Below are positions 14,889 through 36,881 of a stretch of 64,000 bases of DNA, piece after piece; within the stretch, counting starts at the first letter, position 1; every line of letters begins with the position of its first letter. The notes under the pieces are model-generated. The model saw only the letters and a program-made list of their open reading frames with translations. It did not search any database and was not told where the DNA came from. Both the position numbers and the translations under genes were made by a program. Source of the DNA: a virus (lineage: Duplodnaviria > Heunggongvirae > Uroviricota > Caudoviricetes); IMG/VR virus record IMGVR_UViG_3300043438_000976, positions 100,027 to 164,026 of that record; one strand, 5' to 3'.

Positions 14889-14889
14889 A

Positions 14890-19384: not shown

Positions 19385-21439
19385 TTACTTGCTTGTGGCT
19401 ATGAATACGCCATTCCAGTCGGCTGGAAGTATTTGAGTCTTTTGAAACTCACAGCGTTCTATCCACATGCTGTAGTATTTTTTCATTTGCCCGTCGAACT
19501 CATCTTTCAGTTCTTCACACAGTGTAATGGCATCGTCCCATTTCTGCTGTCTATAACATGAGTGCATTTCATTATGAGTTTCTTGTGCTAACAAATATTC
19601 TGCGGCAACAGTTACGTCAGGGTCAAGTACTGTATAGATAGCAACTCCTACACTCTTACCTTTAACTGCTAGGTCGTCAATCTTAAGGAAGAAGAACTCG
19701 TCAGCACATCGTTGAACGGTTGCTCCACCTACTAATAACAGGCAACCGTATTCTTTACACTTGCTTTCGATACGTGCGGCTGTGCTAACGGCATCGCCTA
19801 GTACATCGTAACTGTGTCGAGCTGTACTGCCCATCTCACCGATGTAGCCCAATCCTGTATTAATGCCTGCACCCATACCAACTGGTGGTCTGCCTTGCGG
19901 AACAATCACGTCTCGGTTAAAAGTATCTACAGCTCTAAGCATCTTTAATCCTGTGCGAACTGCTGTTGACGGGTGATTAAGATCTTCAATGGGTGCATTG
20001 TGTATGTGCATACTGGCATCACCGATGTACTTGATAATCATTCCGTCTGCATCTAATACAGGTTGCGTAATAGCGTCCATGTAGCCGTTCATTATACGTG
20101 TAAGCCCCGCAACATCATCACCAAAGCTTTCACCTAGGGGTGTAAAGCCACGTAAGTCTGAAAACAGTATGCTGACTTCTTTCTTAACACCCTTCTTAAT
20201 AAGGTCTGGATTTTCTTGCAGTAATCTAACCACTGTAGGACTAGCGTAACCTGCAAACTGTTTCTTGATTGCCTGCTTCTGTAAAAACTCGCTTACGAAT
20301 TTAACTCCGTATGCATGTAATGCCACAAGCAATATGCCACTGACAAAAGCAGTAGCATCAAACAGATAAAGATACTGGCTATAAGCATACATGCTGACAG
20401 CAACACCACCCATAGAAAGAGCAACCACTGTTCCAAGTCCAACATATACCCACCTTGTTAAAAATAATAATAGTACGCCTGCTGCTAACAGTACAATAAT
20501 TTCCACACCATCTGCGTAATCCGGACGCTGGATAGTTACATTGTTCATCATTGTGCCTATTACTGCGGCCTGTACTTCGTGTGGAAATACTGCACCCTTA
20601 CTAGTGGGTAATGGATTAGCAATACCTGCGGCTGTTGGGCCTACGATAACAATAGCACCTGCTAGATCTTTTGGCAGGTTTACTGCACTAACGCTGTGAC
20701 TTGCCTGACTCCAATCAATCCATATGCGACCTAAGTTATCTGTTGCTACAGGACCAAACTTAGGTATACGCATCTTCTCAACTCCACCTTCAAATAGCTT
20801 GACTTGGAATGTTGAATCGCCTGCCGCTACGCGGAGTGTTTCCATAGCTAGACTAGGATATAACTTACCGTCAACTGTGACAATTAACGGCAATCTGCGA
20901 TTAACACCATCTACTTCTGGCAGTGTGTTTACGATACCAACACCTGCTGCTGCGTTCTCTAACACAGGTACGTTGGCAATCAAACCCGGATACTGTATAA
21001 TTTGATCCAAGTACTCAGGACCTAATACTGCCGAACCGGGATTGCGTGGTTCGTTCTTTGTTTTCTGTGCAGGAATGCTGCCTAATACAACTGGGTATTC
21101 TTTTAGAGCTTTACCCAGTTGACTGTCACCACCTGTACGATCTGTTTCTGGCATGAGTACGTTAAGTACCACAAGGCCCGCTCCCCTCTGATATAAATCT
21201 CGTATAAGTCGGGAATACTCAACACGAGGTAACGGCCATTGTCCATATTTGTCTAAGCTCCCTTCATCAATGTTTACTGTAACAATGTTGTTAACAGTAG
21301 TTTCTTTAGATGTAATCAGCGTATCAAAATAGCGTAGTCTTATACTTTCTACAAAGACAGGATCAGCAATTCTTATACTTAAAATAAGTGCCAATGTCAG
21401 CAATGCTGTCCATGGACTTGTTAGGATTTTTTTCAACAT
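19385..21439 (-). CDS. CHASE2-sensor class III adenylate/guanylate cyclase
   Basis: N-terminal signal/TM, periplasmic CHASE2-like region, TM cluster, then cyclase block SILFSDLRGFTPLGE...GDAS; 684 aa. Confidence 0.7.
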   Translation of the reverse strand: MLKKILTSPWTALLTLALILSIRIADPVFVESIRLRYFDTLITSKETTVNNIVTVNIDEGSLDKYGQWPLPRVEYSRLIRDLYQRGAGLVVLNVLMPETDRTGGDSQLGKALKEYPVVLGSIPAQKTKNEPRNPGSAVLGPEYLDQIIQYPGLIANVPVLENAAAGVGIVNTLPEVDGVNRRLPLIVTVDGKLYPSLAMETLRVAAGDSTFQVKLFEGGVEKMRIPKFGPVATDNLGRIWIDWSQASHSVSAVNLPKDLAGAIVIVGPTAAGIANPLPTSKGAVFPHEVQAAVIGTMMNNVTIQRPDYADGVEIIVLLAAGVLLLFLTRWVYVGLGTVVALSMGGVAVSMYAYSQYLYLFDATAFVSGILLVALHAYGVKFVSEFLQKQAIKKQFAGYASPTVVRLLQENPDLIKKGVKKEVSILFSDLRGFTPLGESFGDDVAGLTRIMNGYMDAITQPVLDADGMIIKYIGDASMHIHNAPIEDLNHPSTAVRTGLKMLRAVDTFNRDVIVPQGRPPVGMGAGINTGLGYIGEMGSTARHSYDVLGDAVSTAARIESKCKEYGCLLLVGGATVQRCADEFFFLKIDDLAVKGKSVGVAIYTVLDPDVTVAAEYLLAQETHNEMHSCYRQQKWDDAITLCEELKDEFDGQMKKYYSMWIERCEFQKTQILPADWNGVFIATSK

Positions 21440-22080
21440 CCAGTATTTAGTTGGTTAGCAAAGTCTAAAAGCAGACGGTGATGTTGTCCATTGTGATACT
21501 TGCCCGCCATCCATGAGTAGCTATCGTACCAATAGTTTTCACTTTCTGGATGGCAACCTATTACACCGATATTGTTTTGTATAATAGCCATAGCGTCTCC
21601 GTTTGCATATGTGGCAATGGTGTTAAACTTAGCAGAGTTACCTACTAAAGCACAACCATCATACCAAAACATATTCATTGGCTGGTTTTTCCAAGTTATA
21701 CTGATATTTTTAGCGTGTGGTCTGCGTGTATCTGTATTGGGTTGCGTTGAGTATTGAACAGCATCAACGCTGTCCAGTATATCAAAATAGTGTTGGCCGG
21801 CCCAATACGCACCCATGCATATACCTAAATACTTACCACCACCGCTTACAAATGTTTTAACTCTATCTTTAGTATATTTAAATGCACGGTCAAATGTACT
21901 AGCATCACCAAAGCCGCCAGGAATAACTATCATGTCTACATCATCAAAGAAGTTATCTTCTAAGGGATTGATGCTGAATATTTTAAAGTTATAATGTGAC
22001 TGTAATGATCGTATAACTCCATTGCCTGACTGTACGCTACATTTAGGATCATACAAAAACAGGGCAACGGTAGGTTTCAT
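21433..22080 (-). CDS. class I glutamine amidotransferase-like (DJ-1/GATase1 fold) protein
   Basis: IVIPGGFG and nucleophile elbow GICMGAY (G-x-C-x-G). Confidence 0.4.
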   Translation of the reverse strand: MKPTVALFLYDPKCSVQSGNGVIRSLQSHYNFKIFSINPLEDNFFDDVDMIVIPGGFGDASTFDRAFKYTKDRVKTFVSGGGKYLGICMGAYWAGQHYFDILDSVDAVQYSTQPNTDTRRPHAKNISITWKNQPMNMFWYDGCALVGNSAKFNTIATYANGDAMAIIQNNIGVIGCHPESENYWYDSYSWMAGKYHNGQHHRLLLDFANQLNTGC

Positions 22081-22083
22081 AAA

Positions 22084-22368
22084 TTAGCAATTCCATCGGC
22101 GTAGTGCTAATGCTTTTGGTGTAGGTTTTCCGTTAGGCTTTTTCATAGGACCTTTATTGCCACTCATACGGGCACAGAAACTCTTACGGCGTTTAGCATC
22201 CTTGCTACCTGCTTTTAATTTGCTAGGCTTAGTAGTTACTGCTGTCTTTAACTTACTACCCGGATTCTCTCTTCGGTAAGCATTTACTGCCTTTTGGCTT
22301 AGACCATCAGTCTTATCTTTTCTGTTGACTTTATTCCAGTCTTCGTTAATAAATTCGTGTGCTCTCAT
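22084..22368 (-). CDS. small highly basic protein with T4 capsid-targeting-sequence-like N-terminus (MRAHEFINED)
   Basis: K/R-rich 94 aa; N-terminal MRAxEF(I/L) shared with ORF 28532..30220; compare T4 internal-protein CTS MKTYQEFIAE. Confidence 0.3.
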   Translation of the reverse strand: MRAHEFINEDWNKVNRKDKTDGLSQKAVNAYRRENPGSKLKTAVTTKPSKLKAGSKDAKRRKSFCARMSGNKGPMKKPNGKPTPKALALRRWNC

Positions 22369-22375
22369 GATGTAT

Positions 22376-23245
22376 TTATTTTAGTTTATCCGATATGTAT
22401 AGTGCAGCACCCATGCTTGACCCTGCATCGCCTGGATTTTTTGGAACATAGCTGTGTTTAAATGTAGATGAAAGAAGCCTTTTTGCAGGCACATTATAGG
22501 CACATCCGCCTGTAAAAACACAAGAATTACTGTGAAAAGAGGCAAGTTTAAAGCAATTTTTTATCTGTTCCATGAACACACGTTGTACGCTGGCAGCTAC
22601 GTCTGCACGATCTTTTTCTGCTACTTCCCAATCCCAGATTCCTTTATGCAGATTCTTTGTTAGGTAGCCGCAGACTGTTAAGTAGTTTGGTTCCCAATCA
22701 CCAGATGTTGCTAGCATAGTAAGTTTGCTCTCTTCTTGGACAGGTTTAAATCCCAGTAACTCTGTAAATGCTGAGTAGAACAAACCAAGGCTATAAGGAT
22801 AACCTTTTGAAAATACTTTTTTAAATTTTTGATCTTTATAATGCCAGATACTCACAGTATCCCACTCTCCAATTGCATCGGCTACTACGACCGCAGTCTC
22901 AGCTAATCTACTTTCATATACTGCATTGGCTGCATGACTTAAATGATGCGGCACATAATAAATTGGAACAGAAGGTATGTTAAATTTTTTTAGATAGTAA
23001 TGAGGTAGCTGATCAATGCTGACTGCATCTCTGTATTGCCCTGCGTATAGCTGCCGTGACTTTTTCAGCCAAGGCCTTTCGTACCAAGCAATTGCATCTA
23101 CTGCTCCGTATGATAATGCACGATCAACTAGTTCAGGACAAAGGTCAACTCCACACAGGGATCGTTCATGGTGCAATATTTGACCATTGTCCACAACCGC
23201 AATACTAGCATCGTGGTTAAGAGCGTTTATTCCTACTACAGTCAT
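22376..23245 (-). CDS. carbamoyltransferase, NodU/CmcH family (Kae1-like N-terminal domain only)
   Basis: motifs VPHHLSHAANA, ADAIGEWDT, TGGCAYN, NPGDAGSSMGAAL. Confidence 0.55.
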   Translation of the reverse strand: MTVVGINALNHDASIAVVDNGQILHHERSLCGVDLCPELVDRALSYGAVDAIAWYERPWLKKSRQLYAGQYRDAVSIDQLPHYYLKKFNIPSVPIYYVPHHLSHAANAVYESRLAETAVVVADAIGEWDTVSIWHYKDQKFKKVFSKGYPYSLGLFYSAFTELLGFKPVQEESKLTMLATSGDWEPNYLTVCGYLTKNLHKGIWDWEVAEKDRADVAASVQRVFMEQIKNCFKLASFHSNSCVFTGGCAYNVPAKRLLSSTFKHSYVPKNPGDAGSSMGAALYISDKLK

Positions 23246-23354
23246 TTGTAAATGAAAGGGTCTCTTTTACGAAACTCTTTTAATTTTTTACGTATGCGTC
23301 TACGCTCTTGGAACTCACGGAATAGAGATATGATAAAGTTCATATCTCTATTTA

Positions 23355-25100
23355 TTACTGTCTAACTGTGGTGTTACATCCTGATAAAATTGCACAACTC
23401 TGTATTAGAGTAAAACTCTTGCCGCCGCTTTGTTCTAGATCTACAGTTGCGGCCCCGCCGGCATTGGTCACATCAATTCTTGCATTATTAGCCATGGAAC
23501 CAAATTGATTAACATTTACATTGTGCCCGTTGCCCGTCATCTTAACATCGAGATAATGTTGTCCCGTGCCTGTTTGGCTAGTGACTAGCGTATTGTTATT
23601 ACCGCTAACTGTGCTGAATAACAACTGACTGTTGCCCTGTGTGTGATTTGCAGTGTTGTTATTGCCGTTTATCACAGTTTCAGTATAATTAGTACCAATG
23701 GTATTTGTCTGGCTGGATGTCAAGTTATTTTGATAACCATTAACATCTGCTGTTACGTAGTTTGAACCAACTTGTGTGATGCCGATAGTATTAGTTCCAG
23801 CTCCGTCTAAAGTCAACTCAACTCGGTTCTTTGTTCCTGTTACGTTGATAGTTATGTTATTGTTGTCCCCACCTATCTGATCAACATGCACCGAATTACT
23901 ATAAGGTGAAGTACTGTTAACCCAAGTATTGATTCTAGTCTGTTGTGCAGCTCTACTAGAATTATTAACATAAGTACCGCCACTTTGTATAGTTTGATTT
24001 GATGGTGCATTTGTCTGTGTGATTGTTCCGCCTACTACAGTTGGACCGCAGTCAGCACAGACGCTGCCAGCAGTACCCGGATTGTTTGGAGTACTGCCCG
24101 AACCTGTTGCAGTGCTAGTGACTCCGTCATTTAAGTCGTAGTAAAAAGTGATTTCAGCGATCTGCATACTGTCGCAGTTAAGGCCGCATCCGTCTCCTGA
24201 TTTAGTAGTAGGGAATAAAATAAAGTAATAGACATAGGCAGTAGTGTTGCCTGTTTGTATCTCCGGACTGGTCCAAAATCTTTGATCGCTTAAAGACACG
24301 GTATCCTGTTTAATTAATACCCAATTTACGCCGTCATTGCTTCCGTAGAGTTTGTAACTAGTAGGATCGCGTCCTTCAAAGTCGTTAGCAGTAGTTAAGG
24401 TAAATTTTTGTACTACACGACCTTGACTTAATTTAACTGTAACTCCTGCATTCTTTTTATCAAAATTTAAGTATTTTGTACCAGTATTACCGTCGAACGC
24501 ATTGCCTGCACCTTCGCCTGCTGGACTGTTATTACTAGTTGGGTAAATGTTACTAATCACAACAGGCGTGCTGTTAGTCTTGATTGTTTTCCAATCAGTT
24601 GTAGGCGGAGGAGGGGCTGCTGTTTGTCCTGCTGATAACGGAGTTGAACTCGCATAGGTATAATTGTTTAAGTCTGTGCTAGTAACACTAGTATCCATGT
24701 TAGTGAAACTGGCACTAGCACCGTAGTTATAACCCTGAGCAGTAGTAATAACATTGCCAAAGAATCCCGAACCGATATAAAAAATGGCACCATTGCCTAG
24801 TGCTGTAATGTCACCGTGGTCGTGAACAATGCTGTGTTGTGTTCCATTGCTGTTCATTAACTTCAATCCGTGCTTACCTGGATTGGTTGTGCTGTCAAAG
24901 AATTGGAAGTACTGTCCTGAGGTTACGGTTACTGTTTGAAAGTTTTTATTATAAGGTGCAATAAAGTTGCTGGCGTTTAGTGTGTTACCACTCCAGTAAT
25001 ATTGAACATCGAATATTTGATTGATACCAAACTTACCGTCAGTGATAGCACCAAAGGCATTTGAACATAATAACATTAATGCTAATAATATTTTCTTCAT
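23355..25100 (-). CDS. secreted multidomain protein: F5/8 type C (discoidin) domain plus C-terminal curlin-like repeats
   Basis: signal peptide; NAFDGNTGTKYLNF...YKLYGSNDGVNWVLI discoidin signature; C-terminal S/N/Q/G/T repeats resembling CsgA repeats. Confidence 0.45.
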   Translation of the reverse strand: MKKILLALMLLCSNAFGAITDGKFGINQIFDVQYYWSGNTLNASNFIAPYNKNFQTVTVTSGQYFQFFDSTTNPGKHGLKLMNSNGTQHSIVHDHGDITALGNGAIFYIGSGFFGNVITTAQGYNYGASASFTNMDTSVTSTDLNNYTYASSTPLSAGQTAAPPPPTTDWKTIKTNSTPVVISNIYPTSNNSPAGEGAGNAFDGNTGTKYLNFDKKNAGVTVKLSQGRVVQKFTLTTANDFEGRDPTSYKLYGSNDGVNWVLIKQDTVSLSDQRFWTSPEIQTGNTTAYVYYFILFPTTKSGDGCGLNCDSMQIAEITFYYDLNDGVTSTATGSGSTPNNPGTAGSVCADCGPTVVGGTITQTNAPSNQTIQSGGTYVNNSSRAAQQTRINTWVNSTSPYSNSVHVDQIGGDNNNITINVTGTKNRVELTLDGAGTNTIGITQVGSNYVTADVNGYQNNLTSSQTNTIGTNYTETVINGNNNTANHTQGNSQLLFSTVSGNNNTLVTSQTGTGQHYLDVKMTGNGHNVNVNQFGSMANNARIDVTNAGGAATVDLEQSGGKSFTLIQSCAILSGCNTTVRQ

Positions 25101-26212
25101 CTTTGTACTATGGTAATAATAGTATTACCGCCCGAATTTACTCTGTTACTAAATTCAATACTACCTTGTATCTGCGTTATCAAACTGTTCTGTGTCAACG
25201 GTGTTGTTACGCATTGTATATCGCTACCGTTATCTCTACATAACCCAATTTGACCCTCGTCCTTAGTCACAATAATACCGCTTGCTCTTTTCCAGTCTGG
25301 CAATATGCTGTCCGTTTCGTCTTTTAGATAATCTTCATCTAAGCCGCTACCTATTACATCAAATATGTTAGCTAAAAAATTATTATCTAAAAAGTTACGA
25401 GTAAGTCTATCTTCAAAAAATTGTGCATTTTGTTGATCTAATTTGTTTTCAAGTCCTTGCTCTCTCAAGAAGTCAGCATCTAATGCATTATGATTTAGAC
25501 TTGTTTCTCTTTTACCGCCCTGCTTTAGTTCTTGTGGAGGACTTATGATTAACAAATTACTAATAGCATCTTCACTGAGAGTAAGGATAACAGGTTTAGT
25601 AGGCAGTGCAGCCCTGCTAGCTACTTTGGTTGCTTGGAATGCTTGATTAAGAATAACCTGACCAACATCTGTTTCAACTATGATAGTCCCTACAACACAA
25701 TTGGCTTCAATATCTCTATTTGTACGAGTAGGACGATCATTTGGGCAACTTGGTAACAAAATTACAGTACTGCCACCCATTTCATCTACGGTGGCGGTAA
25801 AATCAGTTCCACGAACTGAGATAGTAGCAGTGGGTGTGTTAACTGCAACGTTCTGCGGTGAGTTCTTGGCAATTTGTCCACTGGCGTATCTAACAGTGCC
25901 CAATGCAACTTTAACACCCAGCTTACCGGATTTTGATTTTGAATCGTATACAAAGTCGTCAATGACCAATCTAGAGTTTTCATTAACCTGTACTCGAGTC
26001 TGATCCTCGAACGTTATGCCCACTTTGCCCGCTGCTGTTTTCACAGAGTCGTTCATTTCTACTCCCGTGCCCTTGTTGCCTGTTAGAGTTGAATTCTTTC
26101 TCTGTATGCTGGGAGGTGCGTTCAGCAACTCCGTCACTGTTCCGATGCTGGCTTGACTGTTCAGCGAGGTACTGATCAATAAGCCTAATAAGATTAAGCG
26201 ACATACAGACAT
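25097..26212 (-). CDS. secreted FecR-domain-like protein in the curli-like operon
   Basis: signal peptide; TISVRGTDFTATV block typical of FecR domains. Confidence 0.35.
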   Translation of the reverse strand: MSVCRLILLGLLISTSLNSQASIGTVTELLNAPPSIQRKNSTLTGNKGTGVEMNDSVKTAAGKVGITFEDQTRVQVNENSRLVIDDFVYDSKSKSGKLGVKVALGTVRYASGQIAKNSPQNVAVNTPTATISVRGTDFTATVDEMGGSTVILLPSCPNDRPTRTNRDIEANCVVGTIIVETDVGQVILNQAFQATKVASRAALPTKPVILTLSEDAISNLLIISPPQELKQGGKRETSLNHNALDADFLREQGLENKLDQQNAQFFEDRLTRNFLDNNFLANIFDVIGSGLDEDYLKDETDSILPDWKRASGIIVTKDEGQIGLCRDNGSDIQCVTTPLTQNSLITQIQGSIEFSNRVNSGGNTIITIVQR

Positions 26213-26220
26213 CTCACACC

Positions 26221-27000
26221 TTAATTACCAGTAGTAATGCTGACTGTGTTTCCGCTTCCTGCCACAGCAAGATTAACATTGGTATTGATAGTACCACTTT
26301 GTACAACTGTGGTATTGTTATTAGATCCATTGATATTCAATGTTGCAATGTGTCCGTCGGCACCACCACCACTTTGAGTAATATTCGTTGCGTTACTAGC
26401 ACCTAATATGGTTAAATCTACTGTGCCTTTTGCACCAGTTAAATTTAGTGTAGTGTTATTTGCAGTTCCGCTACTCTTATTGATGTTTACAGTAACTTGA
26501 TCCGCATCAATTGTAGCAACAATTTGATTCAAGTTACCGTCTGTAACAGCATTGAATATGTTATTAGATCCTAGTAAATTAAGGTTAGCAATAGTATAAT
26601 CGCCTGTTTGATCAATAGAAACAGTATTACTATTTGCAGTACCCTGCTCGCTATTGTTCATATTGATAGTACCGATACCGCTATTACCTGTTACTCGATA
26701 TATAACACTAGTATCAACGCCGCCACTAGCTGTGGCAGTTACAACACCCAAGTTTAAAATGTTAGCACTACCAATTTGTTCAACAATCAAAGTTAAATTA
26801 TCACCTTTGATTTTTGACGGAGTAGTGTTGCCTGTGCCCGTGCCTTGTATGCCGCGGACGCGGTTGGTTGCACCATCTTGTAGCATAGTGATAACAGAGT
26901 TGTCACCTGTTTGATCAATATAGATACTATTGTCTGCTGCGAAAACTTGTAAAGCGACTAACATCACAATCGCTGTCATTACTTGATTTAGCTTCTTCAT
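26221..27000 (-). CDS. curlin-repeat (CsgA/CsgB-like) secreted protein
   Basis: signal peptide; repeats of S-x-I-x-IDQTGD-N-S / Q.G..N pattern resembling curlin pseudorepeats. Confidence 0.5.
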   Translation of the reverse strand: MKKLNQVMTAIVMLVALQVFAADNSIYIDQTGDNSVITMLQDGATNRVRGIQGTGTGNTTPSKIKGDNLTLIVEQIGSANILNLGVVTATASGGVDTSVIYRVTGNSGIGTINMNNSEQGTANSNTVSIDQTGDYTIANLNLLGSNNIFNAVTDGNLNQIVATIDADQVTVNINKSSGTANNTTLNLTGAKGTVDLTILGASNATNITQSGGGADGHIATLNINGSNNNTTVVQSGTINTNVNLAVAGSGNTVSITTGN

Positions 27001-27056
27001 GTTTTTATCAGTTCTTTTGAAACTGCTCCTTGGGGTGTTATGTATTGCTCCCCGAC

Positions 27057-27971
27057 TTACTTGGCCCTGACTTCTTTGCTTCCTTCAGCATCTTTTCTGA
27101 CACTGGACTGCGGCGTTGCGGAAGGGCCTTCTGGGGCTCTTTCGCTTTCGGTGTTCTTTTGAACCAACTCATTTTTTGCTCCCTTATAATTCCAAAGCCC
27201 CTTACGAGCTCCTTCTTTGATAAGTTCAACCACTCCGGCTTCGATTGCTGATTTTACAGCATATGTTCCTGGCTCGTTTATTGTTAATCCTGCTTCGCCT
27301 TCAAATGCCCTAGTGCCTAGGTCAAAGAATTTAAGAGCAGTTATTGCATCAGCCGAACTAAGAATTGTTTTTTGCACAGTTACAGATGCTAATACTTTTC
27401 CAGTATTAACACTCACTGCTCTTAGGCTTATGGTTACAATATCCTGACTCCACTGAGTCTGTTTTCCAATACCAAAGACTCTTGCACCAATGCCGCCACT
27501 CTTTGTTGAACTGTCATAACCTACTATACCACCTTCAATAATCATGCCAGCAAACTGCATTGGCATTAATGGCTTTGCAGCCGCTCCTTCATATGCTTCA
27601 CGCATCTGACGAATAATTAATCTTTCTTTGGTCAAGTTATCGATACCTACCCGCTCAACAACATCAAACCATTGTCCTCGACCTACATCTTGCAGTGCTT
27701 TGATCAAGAAGCTTTCTGCACCTTGTGTAACTGCGGAACTTAAACTGGCAATATTGGCCTGCGGCTTTCTCTGACCAGTCATATCTTTAAAACTATACAC
27801 CGCAACACTAACAGGTTTTCCGTGTGCAGGCTCCTGTATAGTATCAAATTCTTTCTGCATCATCACTGCGGTAACTTCGGGCTTGTCCGCCTCTACTAAA
27901 GGATTATTTTGATGTATTGCACACCCTGTTAGAAAACTTGTAAAGACTAGTACTAATAATATTTTTTTCAT
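27057..27971 (-). CDS. csgG: curli production assembly/transport lipoprotein CsgG
   Basis: lipobox LTGCA; near-colinear similarity to E. coli CsgG (VYSFKDMTGQRKP, IIEGGIVGYDSSTKSGGIGARVFGIG, KTILSS). Confidence 0.9.
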   Translation of the reverse strand: MKKILLVLVFTSFLTGCAIHQNNPLVEADKPEVTAVMMQKEFDTIQEPAHGKPVSVAVYSFKDMTGQRKPQANIASLSSAVTQGAESFLIKALQDVGRGQWFDVVERVGIDNLTKERLIIRQMREAYEGAAAKPLMPMQFAGMIIEGGIVGYDSSTKSGGIGARVFGIGKQTQWSQDIVTISLRAVSVNTGKVLASVTVQKTILSSADAITALKFFDLGTRAFEGEAGLTINEPGTYAVKSAIEAGVVELIKEGARKGLWNYKGAKNELVQKNTESERAPEGPSATPQSSVRKDAEGSKEVRAK

Positions 27972-27972
27972 A

Positions 27973-28455
27973 TTATATCCCCGGAACTACAAATTGACTT
28001 AACGGAATATCAATAGTGGTATTGATATCTGGACCTACTACAGTTAGACGAATAAAGTTGCCGTCTACTAATATAACTTTTTGCCAGCTGATTTTGCTGC
28101 CTTGGAAATCAACCTCACCTTTACAATCTGCTGTAGGAGTAGTACTGGTGCATCCGCTATTAGAAAACATAGCAGTTGCTACGTTTTGGCTAACTTGTGC
28201 ATAGATTCTAGACTCTAAGTTGTTTAAAAACTTAGCCAAGTTAGTGTTCTTTTTGTCAGCAGCCTCTTTGTCTAATGCTGCTTGAAGTCTATCTTGTAGA
28301 GCTTTTCTACGAGTCGCTTCTTGATTTTCGATAGTTAAGACGTGACTACTGTAACCTGCTCCGTTGAAGGCCGGACTTTTAAAAGTAAAGTCATTTATTG
28401 GTGCAGCCTGTACCGTCATTGCAGACAAGGCCAGGCCGAGAATTAAAAATCGCAT
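27973..28455 (-). CDS. csgF: curli assembly protein CsgF-like
   Basis: signal peptide then FTFKSPAFNGAGYSSHVL matching the CsgF N-terminus FQFRNPNFGGNPNNGAFLL; translationally coupled to csgG. Confidence 0.65.
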   Translation of the reverse strand: MRFLILGLALSAMTVQAAPINDFTFKSPAFNGAGYSSHVLTIENQEATRRKALQDRLQAALDKEAADKKNTNLAKFLNNLESRIYAQVSQNVATAMFSNSGCTSTTPTADCKGEVDFQGSKISWQKVILVDGNFIRLTVVGPDINTTIDIPLSQFVVPGI

Positions 28456-28531: not shown

Positions 28532-30220
28532 TTAAATTCCTGGTTTGATACCAGTTTGGGGTGCAGGAGTTGAGCCCAGTGTGCCTTTGGGCTGTACCGG
28601 TGCTCCTATTTTGGGCTTGCTTACCGCTAGTGCAGGCTGTTTTGGCGTAGCTACTGGCGGTTTTGCAACTGGGGCTTTTGCAACAGGCATTGAAACAGGT
28701 GCAGGCTGCTGCATAGTATCTTCTGGATTCTTTTCGAGATAATTTTCGATATCTGCTATTTTCTTTAACAAAGGACCCATATTGATTCTATTTCTAATTG
28801 CATTAGTTCTGCTATCATATTGAGATCTTAGATCAATTAATCTTGTGGGCTCACCTTGTTTTTTAGGAATAAATTTACTAGCCAATTGAGTTTTTGGTAA
28901 TCCGTAAACAGAAAGAGCATATCCTGTTGCCTGTCTAAAATCCACTACTAATTGAAGCTGACGTAATGCATCTTCAAAATCTTTACCAAATTCTAATTCA
29001 GAGAATGCTTTTTTACTATCAGGATCTAAAATAACCATTTCGACTCCTGCTTCGTTTCTAGTTAAATGATTAAGTAGCCCTCTATAAACATTTTCAACAA
29101 ATCCGTCGGGATCTCTTTTTGCCTGTATAGATAACTGTTTAGCTATAAATTCGTATGATACTGCAAAACTATTTTCAAAGTTTTCTTTTTTCTTAACATT
29201 CCATTCTGCAGGTGCTTGTTTAGGAATTTCATGAAATTTCTTTCTAAAAGTTTCTGGTAAACCTAATCCTACAATTGAAGTAAAAAACTCATTTAAGTTG
29301 TTAAAATTATGTCCACCGGCCTGACCAAACTGTTCAACGTTTCCGGCCTTTACACTTAATAATCGTTTAGCAGTTTCTTTACCATCTATTAAGATTTTTA
29401 AGTCAACTTTGGTTGTATTTTGATTTTCTTTTTCAGCACCGTCACTGATAACGTCGATCTTATTTTTACCCGGATCATCTACTGCTTCACTAACTGCACT
29501 TAATATTTTTTTTGATTTGTTGGCGTACTCTATTGCACTCTTAAGTCTTTGATCGAACATTTTTATACTATCATCGGGAACTTTATAGTCTTTGAGAGTT
29601 TTGCCTCTGCTATCCTCGTTGAGCCAGGCGTAAAACGCCTTTTTGTCCATAAAAGGAATAGTAACTTTAAATTCTAAAACATCTTTGCCTGCTTGTAAAT
29701 TTAGTTGCCCTCTATTTTTTGCTAACTGTTTTGCTAAATTAACAACCTGAGCTTCGGTTATCATGCCGCCTTGATTGCTAAATTTAGCAGCAACGGCACA
29801 TCCTAGAATTGCTTCGGAAACATTACCCATGTTAGGTTTTAATACCCCGGTGACCTTTTCATCTTTGAAAATATTACCCGGCCTAACATTTTCCCAAATC
29901 TCGCCATTAGGTTCCAAAGTTTCGTCGTCGACTTCCTCTACATCGAAATACACATCACTAAAATCTTTATTCTTAATTGCACGTTTCATCTGTGCAACCA
30001 CATCTTGCGGATTTTGTACTATACCCATGAAGTTTGTTGGACTACTAGGATTCTTTTTACTAGTACTACCACCTACTCCGAAAGAATAAACTTGATTGTT
30101 TAAAATACCTTCAAAAAATAGAATATAGTATTTGTCTTTTAGCCAGTCATTATCTGACCCGCCCTGGCTCATTAGTTTTTCAACTAGAAAAGATTCTTTT
30201 AAAAATTCACGTGCTCGCAT
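28532..30220 (-). CDS. large hypothetical protein with CTS-like N-terminus (MRAREFLKES) and Pro/Ala-rich C-terminal tail
   Basis: 562 aa; N-terminal motif shared with 22084 ORF; C-terminal PVAKAPVAKPPVATPKQP repeats. Confidence 0.3.
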   Translation of the reverse strand: MRAREFLKESFLVEKLMSQGGSDNDWLKDKYYILFFEGILNNQVYSFGVGGSTSKKNPSSPTNFMGIVQNPQDVVAQMKRAIKNKDFSDVYFDVEEVDDETLEPNGEIWENVRPGNIFKDEKVTGVLKPNMGNVSEAILGCAVAAKFSNQGGMITEAQVVNLAKQLAKNRGQLNLQAGKDVLEFKVTIPFMDKKAFYAWLNEDSRGKTLKDYKVPDDSIKMFDQRLKSAIEYANKSKKILSAVSEAVDDPGKNKIDVISDGAEKENQNTTKVDLKILIDGKETAKRLLSVKAGNVEQFGQAGGHNFNNLNEFFTSIVGLGLPETFRKKFHEIPKQAPAEWNVKKKENFENSFAVSYEFIAKQLSIQAKRDPDGFVENVYRGLLNHLTRNEAGVEMVILDPDSKKAFSELEFGKDFEDALRQLQLVVDFRQATGYALSVYGLPKTQLASKFIPKKQGEPTRLIDLRSQYDSRTNAIRNRINMGPLLKKIADIENYLEKNPEDTMQQPAPVSMPVAKAPVAKPPVATPKQPALAVSKPKIGAPVQPKGTLGSTPAPQTGIKPGI

Positions 30221-30226: not shown

Positions 30227-30895
30227 TTATTTACCAATTTCAGGGAACAGCACTTGCTCAACAAACTGTCGGATAGTTGCTTCCGGCACTCCCATAGCAA
30301 TCATGCTGCGATACACATGGGGATTTTGTTTCTGATTTTGACAGTAGTAATTTTGTTGGTCAGTAACATCGACCCCGTTAATGCGATCTCCTACATTGTG
30401 TAGATAGTAATCTAGGGTTTTAATTCCTAGATCTATAATATTATCTAACTCGTGCTGCTCGCTAATATTACCCGCTGCTACCATAGCAGGGCTAAAAATA
30501 TTACGAGCCCACCCGGGTAATTCTCGTTTCTTGTTCCAAGTTACGTCTTTTACAGTATCTGCAAACCAGTCGTGCAACCAATGGCTTTTGCTTACTAGAC
30601 TAAAATCATGAAACGCACCTGTGATCTTGTTCTTGCCGCAGACAGCATCAAAACCCCAGATAGGACTAGGATCGTCTGGGTGTGGGAATACTGTTGCATG
30701 TAGGATGTATATTCCGTGTGTTGTAGTCTTGTCTACTACTTCCACGTGTCCTCTACGAAACAGATTACTATGGTATACATGATTTTCCCAGTCGTATTGA
30801 TCTAAACTAGGATCTTCTGCTCTGTACCCTGCATGTTCCATCATGGCCTGCATAGTTTCAGCACACTGCTGCATCTGTGTCCATACTGTGCTCAT
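30227..30895 (-). CDS. ferredoxin-dependent bilin reductase (PebA/PebB/PcyX-like), paralogue 1
   Basis: HVEVVD...VFPHPDDPSPIWGFDAVCGKNKITGAFHDFS matches the FDBR core. Confidence 0.55.
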   Translation of the reverse strand: MSTVWTQMQQCAETMQAMMEHAGYRAEDPSLDQYDWENHVYHSNLFRRGHVEVVDKTTTHGIYILHATVFPHPDDPSPIWGFDAVCGKNKITGAFHDFSLVSKSHWLHDWFADTVKDVTWNKKRELPGWARNIFSPAMVAAGNISEQHELDNIIDLGIKTLDYYLHNVGDRINGVDVTDQQNYYCQNQKQNPHVYRSMIAMGVPEATIRQFVEQVLFPEIGK

Positions 30896-31608
30896 TGATG
30901 TGTTCCTATCTTAGGAAACAGGCAGTCCTGTATAAACACACGAACGTCTTCTGGATTCAAACCCAATGCAGTCATTACTTTAGGAGTATGGGGATTCTGT
31001 CTTTGATTTTCACAATAGTAATCCTGTGCAGGACCAGTGTCTAATGCAGTTCCGTTTGTCTCGCCTACTGTGTTAATGAAATGCTTTAAGTTATTAATAG
31101 CAGTAAAATACAGTTGTTGAAGCTCAGTTGGATCGTTAACGTTTCCCGCACTGATCATGCTAGGAGTAAAGATACGCTCTGCCCAGTCGGGCAAACGTCT
31201 AACTTTGTTCCACTCTAATTTTTGTGCTTCGTCTGCAAAATAATCTAGCATCGGATGCTCTGGATCACCAGCAGGACTAAAGTCGTGAAACGCACCTGTT
31301 ACTTTGTTTTTGCCAGCTACTACATCAAATCCAAAGATAGGTGCAGGATTATGAGTATGCGGAAACACACAGCAATGCATCATCCATAGGCCCTTGGTTT
31401 CTCTAGCATCTACTACATCGATGTGTGCTCTGCGATATAAGCTACTGGTCCAGACTTTGTTGTACCAACTGAATCTTTCTAAGCCCGGCTCTTGTACTTC
31501 TGTACCACTGAGATTGAATTGTCTTTCAAACTCAGTTTGTATATCAATTAGACTGTTCCAGACCAAGCTCATTGTTATATGACTCCATAATTTTGATAGC
31601 CCATTCAA
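30892..31608 (-). CDS. ferredoxin-dependent bilin reductase, paralogue 2
   Basis: HIDVVD...VFPHTHNPAPIFGFDVVAGKNKVTGAFHDFSP; tandem with paralogue 1. Confidence 0.55.
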   Translation of the reverse strand: MNGLSKLWSHITMSLVWNSLIDIQTEFERQFNLSGTEVQEPGLERFSWYNKVWTSSLYRRAHIDVVDARETKGLWMMHCCVFPHTHNPAPIFGFDVVAGKNKVTGAFHDFSPAGDPEHPMLDYFADEAQKLEWNKVRRLPDWAERIFTPSMISAGNVNDPTELQQLYFTAINNLKHFINTVGETNGTALDTGPAQDYYCENQRQNPHTPKVMTALGLNPEDVRVFIQDCLFPKIGTHQ

Positions 31609-32095
31609 AAGCTACATTGGCTTCGTCGCCCATGCTGTCATCTAACTTAGCACGAATGTTAGTTTTTAATGTGTTAGCATCTTCAAATTCTAAATTGCGA
31701 TGCGGACCCGGAACAATCTTCTTAATCATTTGTCCGCCGAACATATCTCCCATATGCCACACATATAAATGTGCCATAACCTTATTAGGATCTTGACTGA
31801 TGCTTAATATATAGTTGTAATAATCAATAACCAATGGGCGATATGAGTGACGAGGATTTTGCCCGTTCATCTCATTGTAGTCCATGTTTAGATAAAATTC
31901 TCTACGCAGATCGGGCAAGTCGCCTAGTAATCTGTTAGCACCGGCTGCACCTTCGATTGCACCGTAAAATAAGGACTTTTGTAAAGTCCAGTCTGTCCAT
32001 ATTTCTCTGGGTAATGTCTTTGCAAACACTGCCTTCATAAAAGGTGTGTGTTCTGCACGATCGTGATTTTCTGCTGTTAATTCTTTAAGACTCAT
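31544..32095 (-). CDS. heme oxygenase
   Basis: N-terminal LKELTAENHDRAEHTPFMK... proximal-helix region resembles HO-1; 183 aa; immediately upstream of the bilin reductases. Confidence 0.5.
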   Translation of the reverse strand: MSLKELTAENHDRAEHTPFMKAVFAKTLPREIWTDWTLQKSLFYGAIEGAAGANRLLGDLPDLRREFYLNMDYNEMNGQNPRHSYRPLVIDYYNYILSISQDPNKVMAHLYVWHMGDMFGGQMIKKIVPGPHRNLEFEDANTLKTNIRAKLDDSMGDEANVAFEWAIKIMESYNNELGLEQSN

Positions 32096-33322
32096 TTAAT
32101 CCTCGTAACGTTCTAATACTGCACAAGCAGCCCTGCCGCCGAATGCAAAATTGTTCTTTATTGCATACTTAGTTGCAATCACCGTGGCCTTGGTAGGAAT
32201 ATTGATTCCTACATCAATTGGGTTAGTTAAATTTACAGTAGGGGGTGATATTTGATCTCGTAGTGCTAACACAGTGTAGATAGTTTCAACAATTCCGCTT
32301 GCAGCCAACGTGTGTCCAATTTGTCCTTTATTTGCCGTCATTGTTGTGCCTGGCAACAACTCACGCATGGCATAAAATTCAATGTCATCTCCGACTTTAG
32401 TTCCGGTAGCGTGTGCATTAATATATCCGACATCGGCTAACTGTATGCCTGCTTGTTTTATTGCTCTGGTTACTGCTAACTTTGCAGCGTCACCGTTTTT
32501 ATCTGGGGCAGTATCATTATTACCAGCTGTGGCAATTCCCACAGACTTGATTATTCCGTAAATCTTTGCACCCCGTGCTTTGGCTTTATCTAACGGTTCG
32601 ATAATTAGTGTGCCAGCAGCTTCTCCTGCTACAAATCCTGATCTATCTTTGTCAAAAGGTCTACTGGCAATTTCTGCTGGTTGTAAACTTAATGCACCGA
32701 GATTTTGAAAGTAGTATACTTGGAAGCCTTCAATGGGTACGTCGGCACCTCCCACAATGACAGCATCGAGATCGTCATTAAATTCTAGTTGCTTAATAGC
32801 ATAATCAATACCAGTTAGTCCAGTTGAACATGCAGAGTGCATCGAAGTTGAACCACCGTTGCATTCGTATATCCTAGCAATCAATCCGCTAATGTAATCC
32901 GCAGTTGCTTGTATTACCTGCCTTGGTGAAACTCTTTCGCGGCCATCTTCTAGTTGTCGCATCATGTATGCTCTACTATGTAAACTTCCACCAGTGGTAC
33001 TAAACACTACTGAAACATTTTTGCTAGTAAGATTGCTGTCTCTGATAGCATCTCTAGCAGTGTGCATTGATATTTTAACACACGGATCCCAATACTGGTG
33101 ATGCCCTCCAAATTCTGCTTCTTCAAACGCAGGTAACGGACACGGTGCTCCAGAAGAGACAATTAAAGATTTATGTGTTCTTGGAAATTTTGTCGGATTA
33201 TCTTCAGGCCATTTGATCTGTTTAATTGCAGTTTCTCCTGCTAACAGATTTTTCCAGTTTTCTTGAACACTTGCACCTAGCCCATTAATGATTCCTATTC
33301 CAGTAACGGCGTATTGTTTCAT
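32096..33322 (-). CDS. fabF: beta-ketoacyl-ACP synthase II (FabF-like)
   Basis: active-site Cys region HSACSTG, His motifs NAHATGT and GHTLAASG; 408 aa. Confidence 0.85.
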   Translation of the reverse strand: MKQYAVTGIGIINGLGASVQENWKNLLAGETAIKQIKWPEDNPTKFPRTHKSLIVSSGAPCPLPAFEEAEFGGHHQYWDPCVKISMHTARDAIRDSNLTSKNVSVVFSTTGGSLHSRAYMMRQLEDGRERVSPRQVIQATADYISGLIARIYECNGGSTSMHSACSTGLTGIDYAIKQLEFNDDLDAVIVGGADVPIEGFQVYYFQNLGALSLQPAEIASRPFDKDRSGFVAGEAAGTLIIEPLDKAKARGAKIYGIIKSVGIATAGNNDTAPDKNGDAAKLAVTRAIKQAGIQLADVGYINAHATGTKVGDDIEFYAMRELLPGTTMTANKGQIGHTLAASGIVETIYTVLALRDQISPPTVNLTNPIDVGINIPTKATVIATKYAIKNNFAFGGRAACAVLERYED

Positions 33323-33627
33323 TCTTCTTCGATTCTAACAGCTAGTGGCCAACCATTTTGTCTAGCAAGCATTGTGCTTTCTACACCTTTTTGTTCTGCA
33401 ACTTCGTAAGTATAAACACCGGCAACACCTGCACCCTGTTCATGTACTCGCATTGTTATTTCTTTTGCACTAGATTCGTTGTGCTTAAACACATGCATCA
33501 ATAATGCAATGACAAAATCCATTGGGGTGTGATCATCATTTAGTACAATCACTTTGTACATGCCGGGTGTTACAATGTCAAAATCTTCTTCAATATCAAC
33601 AATATCTTTAGTTTTGGTATTTGCCAT
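33319..33627 (-). CDS. clpS: ATP-dependent Clp protease adaptor ClpS
   Basis: MYKVIVLNDDHTPMDFVIALLMHVF matches the ClpS core [20 protein letters not shown]. Confidence 0.85.
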   Translation of the reverse strand: MANTKTKDIVDIEEDFDIVTPGMYKVIVLNDDHTPMDFVIALLMHVFKHNESSAKEITMRVHEQGAGVAGVYTYEVAEQKGVESTMLARQNGWPLAVRIEEE

Positions 33628-33662
33628 ATAGACTTTCTAAAAAGGGGCCGGAGCCCCTGAAC

Positions 33663-34094
33663 TTACTTGATGGCAATCAAACGAGGCTTGAGTGCTTCAG
33701 GTACTACTCGTGTAAGTTTAACACGAAGAATGCCGTTTGTCAACTCAGCATCGCCCACTTCTACGTGATCTACAAGCGTAAACGCCCGTTCAAAATCACG
33801 AGCAGCCAGTCCGCGGTGAATGTACTTTTCCGAATCTTCATCTTTAGTACGGTTACCTTTGATGATTAATTGATCCTGGTCAACTGCAACTGTAATATCT
33901 TCTTTGTCAAAACCTGCTACTGCGATTTCGATTTCAAAGTTATTTTCGTCACGTTGAATGACATTATAAGGCGGATAGTTTGTTGTGGAATTTACGTGTC
34001 GGTTTTCGAAATCGTTTGAAATACGATTGAATCCGATAAGTGCTCTATTCAGATGTTGTAGAGCTGTTGTGTCAAAGCGTGAAAGTGCGTTCAT
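33663..34094 (-). CDS. Hsp20/alpha-crystallin small heat-shock protein
   Basis: YPPYNVIQRDENNFEIEIAVAGF...IKG similar to IbpA; start set at MNALSRF. Confidence 0.8.
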   Translation of the reverse strand: MNALSRFDTTALQHLNRALIGFNRISNDFENRHVNSTTNYPPYNVIQRDENNFEIEIAVAGFDKEDITVAVDQDQLIIKGNRTKDEDSEKYIHRGLAARDFERAFTLVDHVEVGDAELTNGILRVKLTRVVPEALKPRLIAIK

Positions 34095-34175
34095 TGTTTT
34101 TCTCCTTAATAAGCAAGAACATTGTGGGGAACTATTCCCCATTTGTAGAACCCTAACGGCGTCCTACAAATTTAT

Positions 34176-35654: not shown

Positions 35655-35655
35655 T

Positions 35656-36617: not shown

Positions 36618-36881
36618 ACATTACCCAACATCCTGTTTCTGTATTCCAGTGGCGATTGTCATATAACTGAAAATGTACATTATATCCAAACAGGCCGACT
36701 TCTAAATCTAAGCCTGCGTGACTTTGCCTAATGGTCCAATTAAACATAAAAGACACTAGGGTGGAATCTCTAGTAACTTCTAGTTCAATAAATTTGTTCT
36801 TAAAGAGAGTGACAAAACTTGTACACCACAAATTCTTAAATGTGTTACTCCAGGGATTTCGAATGTTAAAATTTAAACTGA

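What the first reader, a model, noticed from the sequence alone, without database searches (positions are those of the whole stretch)
23355..28455. A complete curli-type amyloid secretion module on a phage backbone
Five consecutive minus-strand genes encode CsgF, CsgG, a curlin-repeat protein, a FecR-like secreted protein and a large discoidin-plus-curlin-repeat secreted protein. The CsgG match to E. coli CsgG is essentially colinear, including the lipobox. The genes sit between phage-like genes (carbamoyltransferase and CTS-like proteins, with rIIA/rIIB further downstream) and are tightly packed or translationally coupled. A phage-encoded curli export and nucleation system plus cargo could remodel host biofilm or surface during infection or lysogeny. 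Alternatively the CsgG pore may be co-opted for another role. I am not aware of this being a standard phage function.
Basis: partly seen in the sequence, partly recalled or inferred. Interest (0 to 1): 0.9.

Follow-up and report, generated by a model that had tools for sequence, protein, structure and literature searches.

The report
Phage-borne curli-like secretion module
A large uncultured phage carries a gene set for a curli-type outer-membrane pore, curli-like fibre proteins and a linked cAMP-producing sensor, but the same set is already published for marine SAR11 and OM43 phages, so this is a new example and not a new kind of system.

Summary

The segment is not a chimera. The identical gene order was assembled independently in many samples, and about 40 viral contigs share it. 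The conserved unit is really six genes, because a CHASE2 adenylate cyclase (19385-21439) always follows.

The system is not new. The same order (CsgF, CsgG, CsgA/B, FecR, second CsgA/B, adenylate cyclase) is annotated in Pelagibacter phage HTVC008M and Methylophilales phage Melnitz, and is described in three papers (2020-2022). Those papers report that it is expressed and widespread in the ocean.

What is new here is modest. The carrier is a different, probably jumbo, rIIA/rIIB-encoding phage. The second curlin carries lectin-like domains, and bilin-synthesis genes are a recurrent neighbour. Function remains untested.

The parts
27973..28455 (-). CsgF-like protein, 160 aa, with a Sec signal peptide (…MTVQA|AP). 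In E. coli, CsgF is the partner of the CsgG pore and couples fibre nucleation to it.
   Evidence: Pfam PF10614 E 1.3e-6, above the curated cutoff. All 16 viral orthologues tested match PF10614, best E 4.7e-16. dN/dS is 0.064 against L003.
27057..27971 (-). CsgG outer-membrane lipoprotein pore subunit, 304 aa, lipobox LTG|C.
   Evidence: Pfam PF03783 E 4.8e-49. Colinear with E. coli CsgG structures at E 5.9e-49. 44-46% identical to CsgG of HTVC008M and Melnitz. At the constriction positions, E. coli Y-N-F is replaced by Q-S-L; the surrounding loop …ASLS(T/S)AVTQGA is shared by most of the 43 viral copies, with F instead of L in several.
26221..27000 (-). Curlin-like repeat protein (CsgA/B-like), 259 aa, with a Sec signal peptide (…LQVFA|AD). 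The mature part is 15.6% N, 15.2% T and 13.1% G, and carries five N-x-h-x-h-x-Q-x-G motifs.
25097..26212 (-). Secreted FecR-domain protein, 371 aa, signal peptide …LNSQA|S, with a C-terminal half of unknown fold. It is the proposed periplasmic partner of the CHASE2 cyclase.
   Evidence: Pfam PF04773 E 2.2e-11. 41-45% identical by BLASTP to the gene in the same position in HTVC008M and Melnitz (42-49% by tblastn). It is very abundant in metagenomes: 7745 clusters at E<=1e-5. FecR-domain genes sit directly upstream of CHASE2 genes in bacteria (PMC5192318).
23355..25100 (-). Second curlin-type protein, 581 aa, signal peptide …SNAFG|A. It has an N-terminal region of unknown fold, a discoidin / F5-8 type C (CBM32-like) domain at about residues 188-317, curlin-like repeats at about 400-560, and a C-terminal C-x5-C tail.
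   Evidence: Pfam F5_F8_type_C E 2.4e-10. It matches the CBM-like domains of GH92 mannosidase 7nsn at E 1.6e-18. The family profile also hits curlin 8c50 at E 7.8e-5. hhalign against the 259-aa family gives probability 96%, E 3.4e-9. The C-terminal part is 33-34% identical to the HTVC008M and Melnitz proteins that pass the Pfam Curlin_rpt cutoff. In this gene slot, 18 of 39 viral proteins hit Curlin_rpt, 4 hit F5_F8_type_C and 2 hit PA14.
21433..23245 (-). Three genes inserted between the second curlin and the cyclase in this lineage: a carbamoyltransferase N-domain protein (22376-23245), a DUF6321 protein (22084-22368) and a GATase/BPL_N-like protein (21433-22080). They are not part of the conserved core.
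   Evidence: Pfam. They are present in the closest relatives only. Other loci hold different genes, or none, in this slot.
19385..21439 (-). CHASE2-domain class III adenylate cyclase, 684 aa. It is the sixth conserved member of the module: a membrane sensor with a periplasmic CHASE2 domain and a cytoplasmic cyclase domain.
   Evidence: Pfam CHASE2 E 1.8e-39 and Guanylate_cyc E 8.2e-15. 51% identical to the Melnitz cyclase and 36% to the HTVC008M cyclase. A homologue lies on the same strand downstream of FecR in every related locus that extends far enough. Both metal-binding Asp, the Lys and the Arg are conserved; the transition-state Asn is Ser in 21 of 28 distinct viral sequences.

Best explanation
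This is a phage-borne type VIII (curli-like) secretion module of the kind already described in marine pelagiphages. Here it sits in a different, large, uncultured phage that encodes rIIA and rIIB.

Proposed mechanism:
1. During infection the five exported proteins cross the inner membrane through the host Sec system.
2. CsgG is lipidated and forms an outer-membrane pore, and CsgF docks on it.
3. The 259-aa curlin-like protein and the 581-aa lectin-plus-curlin protein are exported through the pore and assemble into beta-solenoid fibres on the infected cell. The discoidin domain gives those fibres glycan-binding ability.
4. The secreted FecR-domain protein and the CHASE2 adenylate cyclase form a periplasm-to-cytoplasm signalling pair. 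This pair couples an envelope, export or external cue to cAMP.

Shown here: the identities of the parts, their export signals, their conserved order, purifying selection on them, and that the locus is genuine.

Inferred: export through CsgG, fibre formation, the FecR-CHASE2 interaction, and the benefit to the phage. Proposed benefits are aggregation of neighbouring host cells, adhesion to glycans or particles, or a shield against superinfection.

The confidence of 0.55 is for this mechanism as a whole; the identity of the parts alone is about 0.9.
For: Part identities:
- CsgG and CsgF.
- The curlin nature of both repeat proteins at family level. The conserved columns are mostly the Q, G and N ladder residues.
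- All five proteins carry signal sequences, read directly.

Conservation:
- The order CsgF, CsgG, curlin, FecR, second curlin, then the cyclase after a variable gap, recurs in HTVC008M, Melnitz, 40 IMG/VR loci and 5 metagenome-assembled genome (MAG) contigs.
- All six genes are under purifying selection, with dN/dS 0.06-0.14 against L003, similar to neighbouring metabolic genes.

Surface exposure:
- Different glycan-binding N-terminal domains (F5/8 type C, PA14) are fused to the second curlin in different lineages. This fits an extracellular, surface-exposed product better than a pore-only role.

Signalling pair:
- FecR next to CHASE2 is an independent bacterial sensor pairing.

Literature:
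- All module genes are expressed in ocean metatranscriptomes, and the module has been interpreted as a complete T8SS (PMC9599517).
Against: - No experiment shows fibres. Melnitz-infected cultures showed no clumping in cytograms or electron microscopy (PMC9004378).
- No CsgE, CsgC or CsgD is present. The mature 259-aa protein starts directly with a repeat and has no E. coli-type N22 targeting segment.
- The CsgG constriction residues differ from E. coli.
- The window's own repeat proteins fall below Pfam's Curlin_rpt cutoff.
- A 581-aa protein with a folded lectin domain would have to cross a roughly 1-nm pore unfolded.
- The FecR model failed (pLDDT 38), so nothing structural supports the FecR-CHASE2 link.
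- The cyclase lacks the canonical transition-state Asn.
Confidence: 0.55

Rival explanations
1. Pore only. The phage uses the CsgG-CsgF channel for something other than fibre export. One version is a gated hole that depolarises or permeabilises the envelope to time lysis. Another is an open channel that lets nutrients or cofactors in. The repeat proteins would then be accessory or vestigial.
For: These roles are proposed in the literature: the lysis-timing pore for Melnitz (PMC9004378) and the import channel (PMC7029224; PMC9599517). No CsgE gate is present. The constriction residues are altered. No aggregation was seen in Melnitz cultures.
Against: It does not explain why two curlin-type genes with signal peptides, CsgF and the lectin fusions are kept in order and under purifying selection across about 45 loci. 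CsgF is not needed for CsgG assembly (as noted in PMC7029224). An outer-membrane pore cannot by itself depolarise the inner membrane (general knowledge).
Confidence: 0.2
2. Signalling device. The main output is cAMP. The CsgG-CsgF pore and the secreted repeat and lectin proteins serve as the outer-membrane and surface antenna of a FecR-CHASE2 sensor that reprogrammes the infected cell. Fibres are not the point.
For: FecR and the cyclase are among the best-conserved members. The FecR gene is interleaved between the two curlin genes in every lineage. FecR-CHASE2 pairs exist on their own in bacteria with various outputs.
Against: No precedent was found here for a CsgG pore feeding a CHASE2 sensor. 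PMC9599517 reports that FecR and the cyclase are not always present in viral curli regions, so the T8SS part can stand alone. The cyclase has a Ser in place of the catalytic Asn in most copies.
Confidence: 0.15
3. Artefact. The curli genes are host DNA joined to phage DNA by misassembly, or the whole window is bacterial and not viral.
For: The window holds no structural phage genes and is rich in metabolic genes. Five related loci sit in bacterial MAG bins.
Against: - Identical gene order occurs in the six independently assembled contigs shown, from one ENA and five JGI samples.
- The exact CsgG, FecR and rIIA proteins occur on 26-33 contigs each and share the same longest-contig length, 380,947 bp.
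- G+C content is even, 0.37-0.44, across the region.
- rIIA, rIIB and the NAD-salvage enzyme NAMPT match phage families.
- There is a 34-tRNA array and a tmRNA.
- Forty IMG/VR contigs and two cultured phages share the module.
- The MAG hits are short contigs from taxonomically unrelated bins, each carrying module genes in the same order, as expected for mis-binned phage.
Confidence: 0.02

Closest known systems
Viral T8SS (curli) module of Pelagibacter and OM43 phages: HTVC008M, Melnitz, uncultured pelagimyophages and HTVC023P-type podophages (PMC7029224, PMC9004378, PMC9599517)
   Same: It has the same gene content and order: CsgF, CsgG, curlin-repeat protein, FecR, second curlin-repeat protein, adenylate cyclase. 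It also lacks CsgE, CsgC and CsgD. Protein identities to the cultured phages are CsgG 44-46%, FecR 41-45% and cyclase 36-51%.
   Different: - The carrier is not a close relative of those phages. It encodes rIIA and rIIB whose best matches in sequenced phages are only 29% identical, to PA5oct-like jumbo phages. It has 34 tRNAs. Its contigs reach 193 kb in IMG/VR and 381 kb in the protein index.
- No DNA-level match exists in 50,697 phage records.
- The second curlin carries a discoidin domain.
- Three extra genes separate it from the cyclase.
- No histidine kinase precedes CsgF. The upstream 562-aa protein has no recognisable domain.
- Heme oxygenase and two bilin reductase genes lie just upstream.
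E. coli / Salmonella curli system (csgBAC and csgDEFG)
   Same: CsgG is colinear with E. coli CsgG, including the lipobox. CsgF belongs to the same family and keeps the N-terminal motif. The subunits have curlin-type Q/N/G repeats.
   Different: There is no CsgE adaptor, no CsgC chaperone and no CsgD regulator. The repeat proteins are longer and have no N22-like leader. The constriction residues Y-N-F are replaced by Q-S-L. FecR and a CHASE2 cyclase are embedded in the operon. One subunit is fused to a lectin domain.
Alphaproteobacterial-type curli operons lacking CsgC, CsgD and CsgE (Dueholm et al. 2012, as cited in PMC7029224 and PMC9599517)
   Same: It has the same reduced component set. 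The literature places the viral CsgG, CsgF, FecR and cyclase closest to alphaproteobacterial sequences.
   Different: This relationship was not tested here. In the one genome scan made, close relatives of this FecR protein turned up only on short, probably viral, MAG contigs, and that scan was of low sensitivity.
Bacterial FecR-domain protein plus CHASE2 sensor pairs (Burkholderia BiofilmReg operon, PMC5192318; the Acidobacteriota locus L054 examined here)
   Same: A secreted FecR-domain protein is encoded immediately upstream of a membrane protein with a periplasmic CHASE2 domain.
   Different: The output domains differ: histidine kinase or HD domain in bacteria, adenylate cyclase here. The bacterial FecR proteins carry LysM or OmpA peptidoglycan-binding domains, which this one lacks. 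No CsgG or CsgF hit lies within the roughly 8 kb flanks of either bacterial locus. In the phage module, other genes lie between FecR and the cyclase.

Membership tests
Type VIII secretion (curli) system | CsgG: an outer-membrane lipoprotein with a lipobox and the CsgG fold or sequence family | tested here: met
   PF03783 E 4.8e-49. Colinear with E. coli CsgG structures at E 5.9e-49, lipobox LTGC.
Type VIII secretion (curli) system | CsgF: a secreted partner of CsgG encoded next to it | tested here: met
   PF10614 E 1.3e-6, above cutoff. 16 of 16 viral orthologues match. It lies 1 nt upstream of csgG. Neither a single-sequence search nor a profile search of the PDB recovered E. coli CsgF.
Type VIII secretion (curli) system | Secreted subunit(s) built of curlin repeats (CsgA/CsgB type) | tested here: met
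Type VIII secretion (curli) system | The subunits are exported through CsgG and form amyloid fibres | not testable with these tools
   This needs expression with Congo red or thioflavin assays, electron microscopy and fractionation.
Type VIII secretion (curli) system, enterobacterial type | CsgE periplasmic adaptor, CsgC chaperone and CsgD regulator are present | tested here: not met
   No such Pfam family appears on any module protein, nor on any called gene within 10 kb on the identical contig L043. The literature reports the same for viral and alphaproteobacterial modules.
Viral T8SS module of pelagiphages (PMC9599517) | Conserved order CsgF, CsgG, CsgA/B, FecR, second CsgA/B, adenylate cyclase on one strand | tested here: met
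   Three lineage-specific genes are inserted before the cyclase.
Viral T8SS module of pelagiphages (PMC9599517) | It is carried on a phage genome | tested here: met
   rIIA, rIIB and NAMPT match phage protein families. There is a 34-tRNA array and a tmRNA. Relatives are present in IMG/VR. The exact rIIA and CsgG proteins share the same longest-contig length. No structural gene lies inside the window.
Viral T8SS module of pelagiphages (PMC9599517) | The host is SAR11 or OM43 and itself lacks a T8SS | not testable with these tools
   The host of this phage is unknown. Its backbone is not close to the cultured pelagimyophages.
Viral T8SS module, podophage form (PMC9599517) | A histidine kinase gene lies immediately upstream of csgF | tested here: not met
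   The upstream 562-aa protein has no Pfam match even at E<=5 and no PDB sequence match.
FecR-CHASE2 sensor pair | A secreted FecR-domain protein and a membrane protein with a periplasmic CHASE2 domain are encoded together | tested here: met
   Both domains are present and co-conserved in about 26 loci. Direct adjacency is seen in bacteria. A physical interaction was not tested.

The most novel reading that the evidence does not exclude
The module is a self-contained, horizontally mobile surface-fibre and second-messenger circuit that has spread across unrelated phage families, now including a jumbo-size phage. In this reading, lectin-bearing curli-like fibres are exported through CsgG-CsgF and bind glycans on neighbouring cells or particles. 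The interleaved FecR-like protein reports export or binding status to the CHASE2 cyclase, so that cAMP tunes the infected cell. The recurrent heme oxygenase and bilin reductase neighbours may belong to the same programme.
Probability: 0.2. Interest if true: 0.6.

Novelty: new member of a known kind. Interest (0 to 1): 0.3.

Why it matters
If the module works as its parts suggest, infection gives the host cell a surface structure and a cAMP signal that it does not otherwise have. That would affect aggregation, particle attachment and superinfection in abundant aquatic bacteria. None of this is new as an idea, and three papers discuss it.

This window adds three points:
- The module is not confined to the roughly 140-150-kb pelagimyophages and the podophages. 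It also occurs in a large rIIA/rIIB phage lineage.
- Family-level sequence and structure evidence supports the fibre subunits being curlin-like. One cultured-phage paper had described the csgA and csgB genes as missing.
- The second subunit repeatedly acquires glycan-binding domains, which points to a testable ligand class.

The cultured phages HTVC008M and Melnitz carry the same module, so it can be tested experimentally.

Tried and rejected
- Megablast of the 5.1-kb region against 50,697 phage records found no match. Relatives appeared only at protein level.
- A 1.5-kb 'Salmonella phage' record hit by CsgG is a short unannotated fragment and was ignored.
- The AlphaFold model of the FecR protein failed (pLDDT 38, pTM 0.18), probably because the alignment was shallow (66-88% identity). 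No fold search was run on it, and the C-terminal half of the protein remains uncharacterised.
- CsgF against PDB sequences, as a single sequence and as a profile, gave only spurious hits to a designed repeat protein and did not recover E. coli CsgF. The assignment rests on Pfam and on a memory-typed hhalign.
- Promoter and terminator scans over 18.8-30.6 kb were not above shuffled expectation: 37 against 30.2±5.1, and 12 against 8.0±2.8. No transcription-unit claim is made from them.
- The 562-aa protein upstream of csgF has no Pfam or PDB match and only an unknown-function PHROG. It was not counted as part of the module.
- The genome scan with the FecR profile used only two peptide patterns. 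The near-absence of hits in bacterial genomes therefore does not show that the family is phage-restricted.
- The chimera and host-DNA reading was considered and rejected.

Full report
**Observation**

The five minus-strand ORFs are at the stated coordinates. Pfam identifies four of them:
- 27057-27971 is CsgG (PF03783, E 4.8e-49).
- 27973-28455 is CsgF (PF10614, E 1.3e-6, above the curated cutoff).
- 25097-26212 has a FecR domain (E 2.2e-11).
- 23355-25100 has a discoidin / F5-8 type C domain (E 2.4e-10).

CsgG aligns end to end with E. coli CsgG structures (E 5.9e-49), including the lipobox. All 16 viral CsgF orthologues tested match the CsgF family.

Read directly, all five proteins start with a signal sequence. 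CsgG has a lipobox (LTG|C). The other four have a signal-peptidase I type A-x-A-like site. The genes are separated by 1, 56 and 8 nt, and the last pair overlaps by 4 nt.

**The curlin claim**

This was the weakest part of the observation. The window's 259-aa protein scores only E 0.47 against Pfam Curlin_rpt, and the 581-aa protein gives no hit. Family-level evidence is consistent, however:
- The genes in the same positions in HTVC008M and Melnitz pass the Pfam cutoff and are homologous to the window proteins by BLASTP.
- About a third of the 46-79% identical full-length homologues of the 259-aa protein carry PF07012.
- A profile of that family hits only two PDB sequences at E<=1, both curlins: Pontibacter CsgA 8c50 at E 5.2e-10 and E. 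coli CsgA 8enq at E 0.0088.
- Most of the invariant columns are Q, G and N, and the N-x-h-x-h-x-Q-x-G motif recurs five times.

The C-terminal third of the 581-aa protein is homologous to the 259-aa family (hhalign probability 96%). Its family profile also hits 8c50 (E 7.8e-5), besides a CBM-like domain of a GH92 mannosidase.

**Is it real and is it phage?**

- The exact FecR protein occurs in 46 blocks of the assembly collection. The contigs read from several independent samples show the identical gene order, from the bilin genes through to the cyclase.
- The exact CsgG, FecR and rIIA proteins each occur on 26-33 contigs and share the same longest-contig length, 380,947 bp.
- Composition is even across the region.
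- The window holds rIIA, rIIB, NAMPT and an NMN adenylyltransferase/NUDIX gene matching phage families, a 34-tRNA array and a permuted tmRNA.
- Forty IMG/VR contigs carry CsgG at 47-88% identity in the same context.

A chimera or a host fragment is therefore excluded for practical purposes. The window itself contains no structural gene.

**True extent of the module**

Mapping the window proteins onto HTVC008M, Melnitz, the 40 viral loci and 5 MAG contigs shows a constant order: CsgF, CsgG, curlin-like protein, FecR, a variable second curlin-type protein, a variable number of unrelated genes, then a CHASE2 adenylate cyclase. A cyclase homologue is seen in every locus that extends far enough downstream. 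The cyclase at 19385-21439 (CHASE2 E 1.8e-39, cyclase domain E 8.2e-15) therefore belongs to the unit. The three genes between it and the 581-aa gene are lineage-specific inserts. All six core genes have dN/dS of 0.06-0.14 against the closest viral relative, like the neighbouring metabolic genes.

**What is already known**

- CsgF, CsgG and curlin-associated proteins are annotated in HTVC008M and Melnitz.
- Zaragoza-Solas et al. 2020 described the curli cluster in pelagimyophages and proposed 'sibling capture' or an uptake pore.
- Buchholz et al. 2022 proposed a repurposed lysis-timing pore, reported no clumping, and regarded csgA and csgB as missing.
- Wittmers et al. 2022 described the full module (CsgF, CsgG, CsgA/B, FecR, second CsgA/B, adenylate cyclase) in both myo- and podo-type pelagiphages. 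They called it complete but lacking CsgE, CsgC and CsgD. They showed expression in metatranscriptomes, found it at all 65 GOV2.0 stations, and inferred transfer between viral families.

**What this instance adds**

- **Backbone.** It is not close to the cultured carriers. There is no DNA-level match in the phage collection. The best rIIA match is 29%, to PA5oct-like jumbo phages. The tRNA array is large, and contigs reach 193-381 kb.
- **Lectin fusions.** The second curlin-type slot is a platform for added domains. Of 39 proteins in that slot, 18 hit Curlin_rpt, 4 hit F5/8 type C, 2 hit PA14 and 2 hit an autotransporter beta-domain. The papers read do not mention lectin-type fusions. Glycan-binding domains on a curlin scaffold fit a surface-exposed product.
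- **Bilin genes.** Heme oxygenase plus bilin reductase genes lie just upstream of csgF in 22 of 40 viral loci. The curli and PcyX papers read do not mention this adjacency.
- **CsgG constriction.** E. coli residues Y51, N55 and F56 are replaced by Q, S and L, within a loop shared by most viral copies.
- **Cyclase.** It keeps its metal, Lys and Arg residues but has Ser for the transition-state Asn in 21 of 28 distinct viral sequences.

**Mechanism**

The best-supported reading is a working T8SS that exports curlin-like subunits, one of them lectin-bearing, onto the infected cell surface.

FecR and the CHASE2 cyclase would act as a periplasm-to-cytoplasm signalling pair. The pairing has bacterial precedent. 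A FecR-OmpA gene overlaps the start of a CHASE2-HD gene in an Acidobacteriota genome. A LysM-FecR gene precedes a CHASE2 histidine kinase in the Burkholderia BiofilmReg operon.

Export, fibre formation, the FecR-CHASE2 interaction and the selective benefit are all inferences. The pore-only and signalling-first readings remain open. The failed FecR structure prediction left that protein's C-terminal half uncharacterised.

**Verdict**

The system is a new member of a published kind, so interest is modest.

Noticed in passing
window 275-8351 (minus strand): An array of 34 tRNA genes covers nearly all amino acids. It includes a long tRNA-Ile(tat) of 92 nt and one call with an odd anticodon (3471-3556). 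An array this size is typical of very large phages.
   Followed up: no
window 63763-63986 (minus strand): A permuted (two-piece) tmRNA, Rfam RF04321, scores 47.4 bits, just above the gathering score of 47. Phage Melnitz, which also carries the module, encodes a two-piece tmRNA too.
   Followed up: no
window 30227-32095 (minus strand); L003-L040: Heme oxygenase (31544-32095) and two paralogous ferredoxin-dependent bilin reductase genes (30892-31608, 30227-30895) sit just upstream of the module. Heme oxygenase plus a bilin reductase lies upstream of csgF in 22 of 40 related viral loci. The closest bilin reductase in an isolated phage is 48% identical, in Pelagibacter phage Mosig. CsgG did not match Mosig in the phage search. 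The papers read do not mention this adjacency.
   Followed up: partly
window 23355-25100; alignment A6: Second-curlin proteins from most lineages end in a conserved C-x4-5-G-C-x5-Q tail, which the 259-aa family lacks. All six mature-protein cysteines of the 581-aa protein form closely spaced pairs (305/309, 348/351, 569/575). This would be compatible with passage through a narrow pore in a largely unfolded state. The meaning is unknown.
   Followed up: no
window 19385-28455 compared with L003: Synonymous divergence is mosaic within the module. dS is about 0.34-0.39 for the 259-aa gene and the cyclase, but 0.95-1.28 for csgF, csgG, FecR and the 581-aa gene. This suggests recombination between lineages inside the module.
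   Followed up: no
window 19385-21439, residue about 551: The cyclase has Ser in place of the canonical transition-state Asn (…GDAVSTAARIES) in 21 of 28 distinct viral sequences. The metal-binding Asp pair, the Lys and the Arg are conserved. Catalytic competence is uncertain.
   Followed up: partly
window 28532-30220 and 22084-22368: A 562-aa protein with no Pfam or PDB match has a Pro/Ala/Lys-rich tail. The 94-aa DUF6321 protein and this protein both begin MRA(R/H)EF…. The 562-aa gene recurs between the bilin genes and csgF in several relatives.
   Followed up: partly
window 9447-15828 (plus strand): A sugar / cell-surface polysaccharide cluster holds a GT34-like glycosyltransferase, a DegT aminotransferase, split transketolase-like halves, an FkbM methyltransferase and two epimerase/dehydratases. 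A GT2 glycosyltransferase lies at 61826-62548. Together with the T8SS module, this points to extensive remodelling of the host surface.
   Followed up: no
window 32096-49391: A run of host-like auxiliary genes: FabF-type ketoacyl synthase (32096-33322), ClpS, HSP20 (33663-34142), PfkB kinase, an SPFH/Band 7 protein (37272-38156), NAMPT (42888-44327), NMN adenylyltransferase/NUDIX (45517-46539) and an S11 D-Ala-D-Ala carboxypeptidase (48615-49391).
   Followed up: no
alignment A6 (proteins downstream of FecR in related viral loci): In two related viral loci, a protein in the slot between FecR and the cyclase matches the Pfam autotransporter beta-domain, and one matches a non-specific endonuclease. 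I did not identify which loci. The slot seems to collect secreted or surface proteins.
   Followed up: no
L054 7653-10927 (Acidobacteriota MAG, 656-kb contig): A FecR-OmpA protein gene overlaps by 4 nt the start of a CHASE2-HD(HD_5) protein gene. This is a bacterial example of the FecR-CHASE2 pairing with a third kind of output domain.
   Followed up: partly
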